Under the pieces are notes generated by a model. The model was not told the DNA's origin. It did no database searches and saw only the letters and a list, made by a program, of their open reading frames with translations. A stretch of DNA of 64,000 bases from Paraspadella gotoi (taxonomy: Eukaryota; Animalia; Chaetognatha), in NCBI GenBank assembly GCA_051294375.1, contig CM119267.1, positions 553,523-617,522 on the forward strand, given 5' to 3'. Of this stretch, positions 407-48,500 are shown piece after piece. Positions within the stretch are counted from its first letter, which is position 1, and the number at the start of each line of letters is the position of its first letter. Both the position numbers and the translations under genes were made by a program.

Positions 407-3400
407 CTGTAGATCAACGGGGATAAATAGGGTGGGGGATTGGGGATCGATTACCGGTGGGGGATCGGGGATCGATTACTGGTCGAGCGCTCGCGCGAAT
501 AAATAGCTTTTGTGATATGAAACTCTTCAGTGAGAATGCGACAAACTACCAGTTCACATTTACGCTTTGTTTTAGTTATTACTTAGGGTATTATTTTTCT
601 TTGTAACTTTTATATCATTTTTATTTTCTAGACGAATCAAGCGTTAAAAAACAAAAACAAACTATATAATCCGTTAATAGATTTCGTACACTGCCGATTA
701 TTCTCAACTCGCGAACCGATTTTTTTTTCGATAGAAGAAAAATACAAAACCTCTTTTCTCCTTCTGAACCAAAAAACAAAAAAACAAAACCTTTTCAACT
801 TGAATCATGCTGCGGCGACATCCGCAACTCGGCTTCACTATCGCCGCTGGCATCATGAGCTCTCATTAACGCCTCTAAACCTAACGCCGCAGTCGCCGCC
901 GCAATGCTGGGCCGATTCCGCAGCGCGGTAAACACGGCCTTCGACGGCCTCGTCTCTTTCGCCGGCCAACCGCCGGGCGACGGGAACGGACTCTACCCTC
1001 CCTCCCCCGACCTCAACCTCAAACCCAAATACATCTACGGAAGACCCCACTTTCTCAAGCTCTCTCCCGACGAGGTGAGAAAATTTGTAAGAGATTATTT
1101 CTTCATGTAATCTTTAGTGAGACCAAATCCCTCAATTTCATTTACATAATGTAGTGATGAACTTCAATTGTCATGTTTTTGTGGTTTTATAGTTGGATAT
1201 TAGTTATGGTCTTTAGCAATGTTAATAATTTACAAGAATTTAACAAGTTAAAATATTAATGATTATAACGAGTTTATTCCTCATATTGATTGACTTTCTC
1301 ATATCTGGTAGTTTATAAATTTGTTTAAGGATAAAAATATGGAGTTTATGGCAACAGCCGGGTTGCCTATGATGCCCATTGGGATGGGGCATCTCACTGT
1401 TGGTTTTGGGGGCTTCCGACCCTCAGTGACGCCTCCAGTCACTGGCACGGTTACCCTAGGACGGTCTCGCTTTGCCAACGCAGAAGGAAGTCGTTAGGAC
1501 TGTGGATGGAACACTACGCCTGGGATGGTGTGTTCCCCCTCTGAGCCAATGGATTTGGCTGAAGGATGGAGGACGTGAGGCGTTGTGAATATACCGCCAC
1601 AAGTTCCTTATTTTTTATACGTAACTGAATGAGAAGAGAGAAAAAGAGGCTAATTTTTGGGAAATGATTCTTTCCAGGTTCAAGCATCCTGTGATCACAG
1701 CCTCCGCCCGATTCTCATTCCGCGAAACTCGACGCGTCTCCCGTGGAACGCGGGTTACGCCGAAGTCGTCAATGCCGGAAAATCAAAGCATAACGAAGAC
1801 CAGGTCCGTCGAAAGGGAGAGAAGATTCTTGTGGAGGCGAAAACCAAAGAATTCTTCTTTATTAAAAATAATAATTGATTTATTATTAAAGAGAGACACA
1901 CACACTAATTCACTATTTTTTTTTCTCTCCGTTCGCTCGAATCCTGATCGTTTTGCTTCTCTTCCTCATTAAGGCCGCTTGCCATGCGTTCGACATCCAC
2001 GTCAAAGTTGACAGCTCCTACTCCTCCACCAACAGCTCCTCTTCCTCTTACTCCTCATCCTCGCATTCCAAATCCTCTTCTCTCCATCCCCTCAATGGCG
2101 TCCTCCACGCTGCCTCCTCTTCTTCCTCCCCCTCCACAACCACCACGGTGCTGCCCTTCACCTACTTCGCTCTCTTCGACGGCCACGCGGGCACCGGCTG
2201 CGCCCTCTGGGCCGCCAACACCCTCCATTATCACGTCAAGGAGAAGCTGGGCGAAGTGGCCCACCTCTTGGCGCAGCTGGAGGACTCGGCGGATGGGGTC
2301 TTGCTCAACGGGCCGACGTTTCCGGCCTTCGGAGCGGCGGCCTCTTCGGCTAAGAAGAAGAAGGTCCGGTTCGAGAGCATGAACCTCGTCACTGCCGACT
2401 CTCTCATCGTGGGAGCGCTGGAGAAGGCTTTCGTCCTGATGGACCAGCAGATCGGGATGGAGAGGCACATGTGGCGCATCACGGGAGGCTGCACCGTCGT
2501 CGTCGCCCTCTTCTTCAAGTCGCGTCTCTTTCTCGCCAACGCCGGAGACTCGCGCGCCATCGTCGTGCGAAACGGCGACGTCGTTCTCTCCACCAAGGAC
2601 TTCACTCCAGGTAATACATGACGTCTCTCTCTCTTCTCCATCTCTCTCTTTCTCTTTATTTTCTTCATTTTCCTCCATCTCCCCCTCCACCTCCAAGAAT
2701 CCGAACGCCAACGCATCCAACACCTGGCGACTCTGCAGCCCAACCTTCTCGGCGACGAGTTCACCGCTTTACAGTTTCCCTCCCGCGTCACGCAGAAGGA
2801 CATAGGAAAGCCGATCCTTTACAGAGATTACGCTATGAAGGTCAGGCTTTTTTTCCTCCTTCCTTCGCCTTATCACGATTTCTATCTTTTCCTCTCTATC
2901 TCTCTCTCTCTCCCCCTTCACAGGGTTGGTCCTTCAAGACGGCCAACGAGGCCGACCTCAAGTACCCCGTCGTCTTGGGCGAAGGGAAGCGGGCGCGGGT
3001 GTTGGCGACGATCGGCGTCACTCGCGGCTTCGGCGATTTCGATCTCTGTGCCTTCGACTCCAACATCCACGTCAAGCCTTTCCTTTCCTCCGCCCCCGAA
3101 GTTTTCGTCTACGATCTCTCCGCCGCCAACGGCGCCGTTGGTGAGCAAATCGAGGGTCTGGATCTCGAGTCGGCCTTCGCGTCAAGTCATGAAATTGGTT
3201 CAACCAATATAAAAATTACAGAAGGCTTCATATTATAAAATTAGGTACCCGTTTTTTGTTACCAGAATCTGTTCCCACCAAACTATTGTGGTAATAAATA
3301 CGTTTTTGTGGAAGAGAAAATATCTGTGCAACTGTTCAAAACAAAAATAATTTTAAAAAATTAAACAAATTTTTGACAGTTTTCTGCCCCTATCGGTGAC

Positions 3401-45595: not shown

Positions 45596-48500
45596 ATGGA
45601 TTTTCCTTCGCAAATGGAGGCGAAGCGAAAGATAGGAAGTCATACGTCAGGGGGTGCTGCTTCTCTGCAGCAGCAGCAGCACCAGCTAGCGGCGGGGGCC
45701 GCGTTTCCGGCCTCTCCCGTCATACGGTCGCCGCGCGTCCCTCAGAGTCCGTCCTCGCAGGCTGCTGCGGGTGGCGCGTCGCCGCTGCATCAGCCGCAGC
45801 AGCAGCCGACGAGCCCTTTGAGGGTTTACGCGGCGCCGACGCCTCCGGGATTCATTCAGTCCGGGGTCAGTCTGAGTTTTCTCAATTGTCGATTTTTATT
45901 TTTTTTTAAACAAGGTGTTGCGCCGCATTACTTTTGTTTTTACTTATCATGTCATTTATTCCTTAGTTTAAAAGATTTCTTTAAAAACAAAAGTCGGCGC
46001 CAGTAGTCGTTTAGATTTGATTTTTAACATAAGTGATTTTTAACGTAAGTGGGACAGACCGACAGACAGACCGACCGACCAAAAAGTTACTTATAGAGTT
46101 GCTCCGCGAGTACTTGCGGCGCAACTAAAAACAGAGGACACCCCTCGACGTTCAATTACAAACGCTGCATGTATTTTTATCGTCGCAAACGCAAAGCTGT
46201 GGTTTTGCACATAAGTGGCGTCGTTGTCGGCGTTCCATATTATAGATCGCCTTTTTTATGATTAAATTTGAGTGTATGAAGCTGAAAATTTATATACAGC
46301 TTCTCATCATCGATGTCCTTAAAATTGGGTCAGGACAGTTATTAAATGTTTTGTTTACGTTTTATCAAAACAAACAAATATCTTATATTTTATTTTTGTT
46401 TCCTTCTCTCTTTTCTCTTTTAATTTTATGTAGCTGTCTCTCTCTCTTTTCCCCAGTGCTGATTCATCGAAAAAAAACGAGTCTGCAGGGGCTCTTTCTT
46501 TTTCTCTCTTTTCTCCTGCTGCTTCTGCTGCTGCCTTTTGATTTCTTTTTCTCTTTTTTTTTTTTTTTTTTTCAGAAACTGTAATTTAATTTTCCTTGGT
46601 ACTTTTTTTTTTTTAATTGACAATCGCAAAATAGAATTTTTTTTTTCTGTTTATGAATTAATTTTCTTTTCTCAAATTTTATTTTTTTAGTATCAAAATT
46701 TGTCGTCAATCCAGATTTTTCTTATGCGATTGCGACGATCCTTATGCTTTTAAGATTTAAAAAAAAAGTATTAATATTAAATGTTAAATATTAAAGTTAA
46801 ATGTCTTATCCTTTCTTCACCTTGACTTTTCGAGGCGTCTCCCCAACGCGCCTCCCCCCTTCACCGCCCCACCTCCCCGGCGTTTTCTCCCGGCGCCGGC
46901 GGAGCCTTCTCTCCGGCCACCATTTATTCAGCCGGAAATTTGCCGAGCGTCTTGCCGATTGGTGGAGGCGGCGTCGTTGTGCGGTCTATGTCCGCGTCGG
47001 CGACTCAGCCAACGACCGGTGAGTCTAAACATTAGTTTTATAAACAAATAGCCACAAAAATATATTCTCTGAGAGGGAGCTCTCGAACTGAAGCGCTGAT
47101 GAGCAACTCGATACAGAATTAAAAGCTATCTCTCCGCTCCAGTCGATGCTCGACGAAGATGATAAGGGAAATCATGATGCTCCAGGATGATCAAACTTGT
47201 CATATAAAAGTCTGGGTTTCTGTCTCTGGTTTCAAAGAGAGAATTATGTACCTACAGAATATACAGAATGAAAATGGGGAAGAGAAATAGAAAATATGGT
47301 GGAATTGTAAGGGAGGTAAATGGTCCTAATATAACTGTATACTTAGCTAATATCCCTATTTAATAAACCAAACAACTTGCTTGTAGAATAAGAGATGCTA
47401 ACTTGCTGTGGTAGAACGCTCGCATGCTTGTAGTATATAGCTATATAAAGTCATAAGCAAAGATACCCAATAGAGGAAAGAAAGTCTTTATTAATAAACA
47501 TATATATAATGCATCTGACACAATTCCTAACCCAGTAAGTAAGGACTGAGACCAGAGAGAATGGGATTGCCATATTGGAAGCATTAAACCTGAGAGTTCA
47601 ACNNNNNNNNNNTGCTCCAGGATGATCAAACTTGTCATATAAAAGTCTGGGTTTCTGTCTCTGGTTTCAAAGAGAGAATTATGTACCTACAGAATATACA
47701 GAATGAAAATGGGGAAGAGAAATAGAAAATATGGTGGAATTGTAAGGGAGGTAAATGGTCCTAATATAACTGTATACTTAGCTAATATCCCTATTTAATA
47801 AACCAAACAACTTGCTTGTAGAATAAGAGATGCTAACTTGCTGTGGTAGAACGCTCGCATGCTTGTAGTATATAGCTATATAAAGTCATAAGCAAAGATA
47901 CCCAATAGAGGAAAGAAAGTCTTTATTAATAAACATATATATAATGCATCTGACACAATTCCTAACCCAGTAAGTAAGGACTGAGACCAGAGAGAATGGG
48001 ATTGCCATATTGGAAGCATTAAACCTGAGAGTTCAACCTGAGGCTTTTAACTATAATTAAAATACCTAAATTTGGGTTTCAATGAGAATATTTATGAATA
48101 AGTTTAATTGATAATTATTTGTACTAAATGTCCCAAACTCTCTAATCAATCATTAATAATTCATTATCATCAATTGGTACAATAATGACAAAAGTGAATT
48201 TGTTAAATGAGAACATGAAATGACACAGGAATAGTATTTATGACTAGGCAATGTCAATACGACAATATGCAAATGAGATTGATGAACTCGATCTCATTAT
48301 TGGTTACATCAAAAGTTCCTTCCTTATAGAATCTTCGTATCTACTGATTTGTATAAAATTTGTACATTGTACAACCAATATAAAAATTATCCAATATTCA
48401 TTCATTTGTTGAGTACGATATCGTGTCCCCCGTCATGATGATTAAACGATTTGTCAAATCTTTTTAGCTCAAGTGCTTCTGCAGACCAACGCCGGACCCG

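What the first reader, a model, noticed from the sequence alone, without database searches (positions are those of the whole stretch)
620..45600. Fifteen co-oriented, tightly packed genes with unpaired splice acceptors before their ATGs: candidate operons with SL trans-splicing
Seen: every gene except tubulin is on the + strand. Stop-to-ATG gaps are very short: NME6-POLK 142 nt, POLK-ANAPC7 225, PRDX5B-NME6 234, PRKRIP1-PASK 243, ASB3-PRDX5A 277, POLQ-COPS5 327, ANAPC7-PRKRIP1 356. Pyrimidine-tract+AG sites sit shortly upstream of many starts, with the AG ending at 631, 8417, 15929, 18867 (directly before the ATG), 20868, 25915, 36409, 37207, 43619 and 45549. Established: this layout is typical of polycistronic transcription resolved by spliced-leader trans-splicing in nematodes, tunicates and flatworms. 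Inference: the cluster may be one or a few operons, which would also explain how so many genes fit inside introns without separate promoters.
Basis: partly seen in the sequence, partly recalled or inferred. Interest (0 to 1): 0.7.

Follow-up and report, generated by a model that had tools for sequence, protein, structure and literature searches.

The report
Operon-like cluster inside a tubulin gene
In this unidentified invertebrate, fourteen unrelated genes sit head-to-tail inside the introns of one opposite-strand tubulin gene, at least two of them are copied on one RNA, and the cluster is likely one or more operons cut into single messages by spliced-leader trans-splicing, a known animal mechanism whose leader was not seen here.

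Summary
The layout is real. Fifteen + strand genes, all seven quoted gaps and all ten AGs check out. Fourteen of the genes lie inside three introns of one intact 45-kb minus-strand beta-tubulin gene. Tract+AG sites are only modestly enriched (10 of 15 genes against 60 of 210 background tiles). Contigs of one probable RNA run give the main evidence. Spliced contigs run through PRDX5B-NME6-POLK and PRKRIP1-PASK. One contig starts exactly after AG 25915 with five non-genomic letters. AG 36409 is a working acceptor but is not unpaired: it is cis-spliced to a donor overlapping the ANAPC7 stop codon, which leaves the ANAPC7 protein unchanged and shows co-transcription with PRKRIP1. No leader sequence or SL RNA gene was seen, no genome was available, and five of the ten AGs were not tested. 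Best reading: operons resolved by SL trans-splicing (about 0.68). The animal may be a chaetognath (unproven), where SL operons are already published. What looks unusual is the antisense interleaving with a host gene and the protein-neutral cis use of an intercistronic acceptor.

The parts
276..45327 (-). Divergent beta-tubulin host gene, 10 exons (45191-45327, 18527-18646, 18257-18393, 8181-8308, 7906-7998, 7158-7387, 6996-7093, 6425-6559, 6212-6337, 276-406), 444 aa. Introns 1 (26,544 nt, GC-AG), 3 (9,948 nt) and 9 (5,805 nt) hold 11, 2 and 1 + strand genes
   Evidence: Open frame without internal stop; nesting. The one short exon scanned had no Pfam hit, so the name rests on recalled tubulin motifs
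904..5302 (+). PP2C phosphatase (PPM1H-like), 6 exons; candidate acceptor AG 631; upstream ATGs at 807 and 855
8513..15694 (+). POLQ, 4 exons; candidate acceptor AG 8417
16022..17578 (+). COPS5, 3 exons; candidate acceptor AG 15929; strong donor-like site at 17611 in its 3' flank
18868..20088 (+). Alpha/beta hydrolase (ABHD4/5-like), single exon; AG 18867 directly before the ATG
21000..23108 (+). Ankyrin-SOCS box protein (ASB3-like), 3 exons; candidate acceptor AG 20868
23386..25440 (+).
25949..26542 (+). Peroxiredoxin-5 copy B, 2 exons
25914..25915 (+). Acceptor AG: a contig begins at 25916 with 5 unaligned letters in front and no cover of 25897-25915; likely trans-splice site
26777..27364 (+). 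NDP kinase (NME6-like), single exon
27507..29798 (+). POLK, 2 exons; the best tract+AG (27517) lies behind the first ATG, so the start may be ATG 27552 (inferred)
30024..36117 (+). TPR protein (ANAPC7-like), 4 coding exons; intron 30474-34453 spliced in RNA contigs
31711..33141 (+). Sulfotransferase, single exon, inside ANAPC7 intron 1 on the same strand (doubly nested); likely not a cistron of the unit
36114..36409 (+). Intergenic GT-AG intron: donor overlaps the last codon and stop of ANAPC7, acceptor is the PRKRIP1 5' AG; splicing swaps the TGA stop for a TAA at 36411-36413 and leaves the protein end unchanged
36474..37004 (+). PRKRIP1, single coding exon
37248..42217 (+). PAS-kinase-like gene, 4 exons; candidate acceptor AG 37207, read through unspliced in one contig
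43662..44993 (+). SIRT6, single exon; candidate acceptor AG 43619; a contig has 17 unshown letters before 43637, equal to the distance back to AG+1
45596..64000 (+). EP400-like SNF2 gene, many exons, start codon uncertain, head-to-head with the tubulin gene and outside it; candidate acceptor AG 45549

Best explanation
Fourteen genes lie head-to-tail on one strand inside the introns of an opposite-strand tubulin gene, ANAPC7 and PRKRIP1 are transcribed on one RNA, and the cluster is likely one or a few operons whose precursor would be cut into single capped messages by adding a spliced leader at T-rich acceptors just upstream of the start codons. Shown: the gene layout, use of AG 36409 as an acceptor, and a contig start at AG 25915+1 with five foreign letters. 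Inferred steps: (1) Pol II starts at one or a few promoters in the longer gaps and reads through the short T-rich spacers; (2) cis introns are removed; (3) an SL RNA encoded elsewhere is joined at the spacer AGs, giving downstream genes a cap, with 3' end formation of the upstream gene; (4) at 36409 cis-splicing from the ANAPC7 stop competes with this, and is harmless to ANAPC7 because the new exon supplies an in-frame stop at once; (5) the tubulin exons sit in the longer spacers and are transcribed from the other strand, probably in other cells or at other times. The best-supported core is ASB3 to PASK (eight genes, coding gaps of 142-508 nt).
For: Layout and gaps. Joint 36112>36409 with GT..AG ends. 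Its 29-letter side has the same form as the true ANAPC7 intron joint (side 30), and length arithmetic puts it on the 1985-nt contig that continues through PRKRIP1 into PASK (my inference). One 3723-nt contig covers PRDX5B, NME6 and POLK with both introns removed and both gaps kept. It starts at 25916 with 5 unaligned letters and was the only contig laid on 25897-27005. The SIRT6 contig's 17 unshown letters equal 43620-43636 in length. No ATG lies between AG and start codon in 10 of 12 genes. The listed AGs differ from cis acceptors: G at +1 in 1 of 10 against 33 of 47, and T count 13-19 of 25 against a median of 10 (partly circular, since the sites were picked as T-rich). Tract+AG in 10 of 15 genes against 60 of 210 tiles. 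The genes are conserved housekeeping genes, the class enriched in SL operons (PMC12460157; PMC8629364).
Against: No leader letters were displayed: no loose end, and 259 of 265 loose-end rows were hidden. No SL RNA family in the window, no match to a chaetognath leader start, and no genome to search. The only junction actually seen at a listed AG is a cis junction, and cis use of operon-internal acceptors is reported as very rare in flatworms (PMC12582326). X1 is one run, RNA only by guess, kept as contigs. A contig across two genes shows no single transcript, and low intronic cover exists (depth 5-8 in ANAPC7 intron 1) that could bridge short gaps. Enrichment vanishes at the strictest threshold and the opposite strand scores 6 of 15. 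No good acceptor before ANAPC7, NME6 or the sulfotransferase. AATAAA is in 2 of 8 short gaps, as chance predicts (1.98). Five of the ten AGs were not tested with RNA.
Confidence: 0.68

Rival explanations
1. Each gene has its own compact promoter. The AGs are ends of ordinary 5' UTR introns or chance sites, and the two-gene RNAs are read-through with cryptic cis-splicing. Co-orientation comes from the usual bias of nested genes to lie antisense to their host.
For: The one proven junction is cis. Donor-like sites scoring 5-11 exist upstream of most AGs. Tract+AG is common in background, 60 of 210 tiles. Nested genes are common in compact animal genomes (PMC10282587; PMC8527503); the antisense bias is recalled.
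Against: Gaps of 142-243 nt leave little room for a 3' UTR, a promoter and a 5' exon. The PRDX5B contig has only 5 foreign letters, whereas cis joints in this run carry 29 or more letters of upstream exon. The cis-spliced path, not the genomic gap, leads into the main PRKRIP1 contig.
Confidence: 0.2
2. The cluster is polycistronic but there is no leader. Mature di- or tricistronic mRNAs are made by cis-splicing across spacers and translated by re-initiation or leaky scanning, or are cut and recapped.
For: ANAPC7-PRKRIP1 is joined by a normal intron, which brings the PRKRIP1 ATG to 60 nt behind the ANAPC7 stop. Contigs cross three gaps unbroken.
Against: It does not explain the foreign letters exactly at AG 25915+1. 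Assemblers prune short side branches, so unbroken contigs are also expected with trans-splicing (inference). Animal operons in the papers read are resolved by a leader.
Confidence: 0.08
3. SL trans-splicing occurs, but mostly on single-gene transcripts with short outrons; true operons are limited to one or two pairs.
For: Six gaps are 508-3210 nt and could hold promoters. Contigs break or were not followed at PRDX5A-B, POLK-ANAPC7 and PASK-SIRT6. Most trans-spliced genes in known animals are not in operons.
Against: Seven gaps are 142-356 nt, in the range used to call operons (under 250-300 nt in PMC12460157 and PMC12582326), and four of them are crossed by contigs.
Confidence: 0.04

Closest known systems
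Chaetognath operons resolved by SL trans-splicing (Spadella cephaloptera, PMC2481426; Paraspadella gotoi, PMC12460157)
   Same: Short spacers, housekeeping genes, tandem duplicates, and coding DNA without CpG loss (o/e above 1 in 13 of 14 genes), as expected without gene-body methylation. Published SL1 and SL2-4 share a 5-letter 3' end, the number of foreign letters seen at 25916.
   Different: The organism is not shown to be a chaetognath and the five letters were not displayed. The longest P. gotoi operon has nine genes. The passages read do not mention nesting in an antisense host or cis use of the acceptor.
Single-SL operons of tunicates (Ciona, PMC1488885) and flatworms (Macrostomum, PMC8629364; parasitic flatworms, PMC12582326)
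   Same: Head-to-tail genes, detectable dicistronic RNA, acceptors shared by cis- and trans-splicing in principle.
   Different: Ciona operons mostly have no spacer. In flatworms cis use is lowest at operon-internal acceptors, yet here it is the path in the main contig. The Macrostomum leader ends in G, whereas the foreign letters here apparently do not, since the alignment did not extend onto the genomic G (inference).
Nested intronic genes in compact animal genomes with SL (Hormiphora, PMC8527503; Aphrocallistes, PMC10282587)
   Same: Many genes inside host introns, double nesting, few introns per gene.
   Different: Here 14 genes are in one host and all antisense to it, apparently as co-transcribed runs. 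The Hormiphora figure example shows four genes per host in mixed orientation.
C. elegans 'alternative operons' (recalled; paper not retrieved)
   Same: One 3' splice site serves as the last cis acceptor of the upstream gene or the trans-splice site of the downstream gene.
   Different: Recalled only. No SL1/SL2 division is shown here, and here both routes leave the upstream protein identical.

Membership tests
SL-resolved eukaryotic operon | Closely spaced, co-oriented unrelated genes | tested here: met
   Seven gaps of 142-356 nt, 15 of 16 genes on +
SL-resolved eukaryotic operon | Polycistronic precursor RNA | tested here: met
   Met for one pair: spliced junction from ANAPC7 into the PRKRIP1 5' exon. 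Only suggestive for PRDX5B-NME6-POLK and PRKRIP1-PASK (contigs)
SL-resolved eukaryotic operon | Functional splice acceptor just 5' of downstream genes | tested here: inconclusive
   Of 5 listed AGs within the laid stretch: 36409 used, 25915 and probably 43619 mark contig starts, 37207 read through, 45549 not shown.
SL-resolved eukaryotic operon | Acceptor has no upstream cis donor | tested here: not met
   Not met at 36409, which is paired with GT 36114. Open for the rest; sharing is known in flatworms and tunicates
SL-resolved eukaryotic operon | Common non-genomic leader on the mRNAs | tested here: inconclusive
   5 unaligned letters at one gene, letters not displayed
SL-resolved eukaryotic operon | SL RNA gene (leader, GT donor, Sm site) in the genome | not testable with these tools
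   No genome held; none in the window
SL-resolved eukaryotic operon | Single promoter for the cluster | not testable with these tools
   Needs CAGE, nascent RNA or chromatin data
Nested intronic genes | Whole genes within one intron of an intact host gene | tested here: met
   14 of 14 modelled genes fall inside tubulin introns 1, 3 or 9; host frame intact. Host splicing in RNA was not seen directly
Chaetognath genome | Sequence affinity to named chaetognath genes | tested here: inconclusive
   Nearest SIRT6 and PRKRIP1 relatives (61-75% identity) are all unnamed; the quick SIRT6 tree had no named chaetognath row

The most novel reading that the evidence does not exclude
The + strand from PPM1H or POLQ to SIRT6 is one 35-45 kb transcription unit of 12-13 genes. 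That would be longer than the nine-gene maxima reported for a chaetognath and for flatworms. It would run antisense through a whole tubulin gene whose exons fill its spacers, with a cis-versus-trans choice at shared acceptors tuning downstream genes without changing upstream proteins, possibly in an animal lineage where operons are unrecorded.
Probability: 0.12. Interest if true: 0.8.

Novelty: new variant of a known kind. Interest (0 to 1): 0.5.

Why it matters
If confirmed, it is a compact test case for two open points: how cis- and trans-splicing compete at an operon-internal acceptor, and how a housekeeping operon coexists with a 45-kb antisense host gene whose exons lie in its spacers. 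The ANAPC7 end looks like a way to make accidental cis-splicing harmless. If the animal is a chaetognath, operons and leaders are already published and the value lies in this architecture. If it is another lineage, it would also add a new group to the patchy distribution of trans-splicing. It also warns that automatic annotation would fuse ANAPC7, PRKRIP1 and PASK and would miss the tubulin gene.

Tried and rejected
No RNA holder on record was listed; X1 is RNA by guess. The second read-laying run, aimed at the five letters before 25916, listed no loose end, so my prior prediction about them (note) stayed untested. Rfam gave 9 matches, all far below gathering score and none an SL family. The chaetognath leader-start pattern had 0 matches against 1.19 expected. 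AATAAA depletion was rejected as evidence (2 of 8 against 1.98). Contig depths were not used to rank expression. Taxon attempts failed: homologue searches, cluster look-ups, a quick unfinished SIRT6 tree on 46 of 121 available rows picked by hand, ESM Atlas, and a JGI metagenome scan whose best of 80 loci was only 56% identical, loci not read further. Xenoturbella was considered; its published median exon of 132 nt fits the long exons here poorly, but it is not excluded. Supplement searches of PMC12460157 (3 files held, 0 hits) and PMC2481426 (its COP9 gene is subunit 2) gave no synteny; the operon table of PMC12460157 was not found among the held text and may bear on novelty. Earlier scan notes: nothing. 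A DNA origin for X1 is unlikely because six introns are cleanly skipped, but some DNA or nascent background is not excluded.
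Full report
Observation. I modelled 14 + strand genes completely and EP400 in part. The 14 translate without internal stops, and 15 of 17 pieces scanned hit the expected Pfam families. The seven quoted gaps are exact. The six remaining gaps are 508-3210 nt. Two corrections: the PPM1H frame starts at ATG 904, not at the first ATG (807), and the best acceptor-like site for POLK (27517) lies behind its first ATG, so ATG 27552 may be the real start (inferred).

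The host gene. The minus strand carries one intact 444-aa beta-tubulin-like gene with 10 exons from 45327 to 276 (the name is from recalled motifs). Its introns 1, 3 and 9 hold 11, 2 and 1 of the + strand genes. Its exons fall in the long gaps between + strand genes. EP400 lies outside, head-to-head with it. The sulfotransferase is nested twice, inside ANAPC7 intron 1. Splicing of the tubulin was not seen directly. One contig ends 29 letters into tubulin exon 1, as a graph fork at its donor would give (inference). Part of the co-orientation may simply reflect the tendency of nested genes to lie antisense to the host (recalled).

Is the acceptor signal above chance? Only modestly. With a tract of at least 17 pyrimidines in 25, 10 of 15 genes pass against 60 of 210 non-coding tiles (p=0.004). 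Six of seven threshold sets gave p below 0.02, the strictest gave 0.29, and thresholds were chosen after seeing the sites. The opposite strand of the same windows passes in 6 of 15. A matrix from 47 cis acceptors gives p=0.046, and 4 of 10 listed AGs score negative, among them 36409, which RNA shows to be used. The listed sites are T-richer than cis acceptors and lack their G at +1 (1 of 10 against 33 of 47). No ATG lies between AG and start in 10 of 12 genes. AATAAA frequency is uninformative.

RNA evidence. One run, X1 (RNA by guess, kept as contigs), holds 81% of the sampled words. Six annotated introns appear as GT..AG joints among the 15 of 35 joints shown. (a) A 3723-nt contig runs from 25916 through PRDX5B, NME6 and POLK with both introns removed and both gaps kept. 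It begins at the base after AG 25915 and carries 5 further letters that do not align; nothing covers 25897-25915. The letters were not displayed. (b) A joint links 36113 to 36410. The spliced form ends ANAPC7 with the same residues and a new stop. The tool warns about joints with sides under 30 letters; this one has 29 plus 1, lies in unique coding DNA, has canonical ends and resembles the true ANAPC7 intron joint (side 30). By depth and length it belongs to the contig that continues through PRKRIP1, across AG 37207 unspliced, into PASK (my arithmetic). DNA cannot produce this junction, so ANAPC7 and PRKRIP1 are co-transcribed at least in part. (c) The SIRT6 contig has 17 unshown letters before 43637, exactly the distance back to AG 43619+1. 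Caveats: contigs show no single molecule, low intronic cover (depth 5-8) exists, and 259 of 265 loose-end rows were hidden.

Mechanism. The most economical reading is operons resolved by SL trans-splicing (0.68). It accounts for short T-rich spacers, acceptors close to start codons, RNA across spacers, contig starts at AG+1 and foreign letters there. The leader itself, the SL RNA gene and the promoter count are inferred, not shown. Separate promoters with read-through and 5' UTR introns (0.2) remain the main rival, because the only junction seen at a listed AG is cis. Leaderless polycistronic mRNA (0.08) and mostly monocistronic trans-splicing (0.04) fit less well. The core most likely co-transcribed is ASB3 to PASK. 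The sulfotransferase and EP400 probably have their own starts.

Organism. It is a slowly evolving animal: COPS5 is 73-78% identical to the best named animal hits. Its nearest SIRT6 and PRKRIP1 relatives are all unnamed environmental or run-derived proteins that form a clade with it in a quick tree of 46 hand-picked rows. A chaetognath is my best guess (about 0.55). The reasons are the lack of CpG depletion (13 of 14 genes above 1), a tandem duplicate, relatives in a source that I recall as a marine eukaryote catalogue, and the fact that published chaetognath leader forms share a 5-letter end. This is a lead, not a test.

Comparison and novelty. SL operons are published for chaetognaths (PMC2481426: passages, section 12 and supplement search; PMC12460157: passages, section 5 and supplement search), tunicates (PMC1488885, passages) and flatworms (PMC8629364 and PMC12582326, passages). 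SL is published for an acoel (PMC9911081, passages). Overviews seen as passages: PMC7986045 and bioRxiv 10.1101/642082. Heavy nesting is published for a glass sponge and a ctenophore (PMC10282587 and PMC8527503, passages). PMC11521371 and PMC10565955 were seen as passages for genome statistics. Shared cis/trans acceptors are known, but are reported as very rare at operon-internal sites in flatworms; a C. elegans precedent is recalled and could not be retrieved. Two searches for operons nested in introns returned no paper, and three broader ones listed none by title or abstract start; the library lacks most subscription papers. I rate it a new variant of a known kind: a known mechanism, not yet proven here, in an unusual architecture that is directly visible. 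Interest 0.5.

Noticed in passing
window 23577, 45190 (minus), 6424 (minus): 3 of 47 introns have GC donors, all reading AG|GCGAG; GT donors are very relaxed at +3 to +6.
   Followed up: partly
window 17611; 17798, 17801, 18185, 18867: A strong donor 33 nt behind the COPS5 stop could splice to a nearby acceptor or across two antisense tubulin exons to the ABHD start.
   Followed up: no
window 42213: A donor-like site overlaps the PASK stop codon, as at ANAPC7; no joint was shown for it.
   Followed up: no
window 23674-24954: 18-nt tandem array of about 70 copies inside PRDX5A intron 1.
   Followed up: no
window 47178-48037: A 425-nt exact duplication on both sides of a 10-N gap; probably an assembly overlap artefact.
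   Followed up: no
window 30511-31238, 42521-42682, 58701-59175, 59785-60570: A dispersed repeat family with very high contig depth in X1; a second repeat pairs 1343-1594 with 55917-56168 inverted at 93%.
   Followed up: no
window 8513-44993: The nested genes are intron-poor (SIRT6, NME6, ABHD, PRKRIP1 single-exon; POLQ 4 exons), while tubulin and EP400 have many introns.
   Followed up: no
window 9191, 21801, 6338 (minus): Three cis acceptors end in an A-run before the AG rather than in a pyrimidine tract.
   Followed up: no
protein P0243 (unnamed relative of SIRT6): Its called N-terminal extension reads like translated T-rich then A-rich DNA, hinting at the same upstream anatomy and an intronless SIRT6 in a relative.
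   Followed up: no
window 3597-4147 (minus): Two open frames of about 106-108 codons in PPM1H intron 5 look like a retroelement remnant (recalled resemblance).
   Followed up: no
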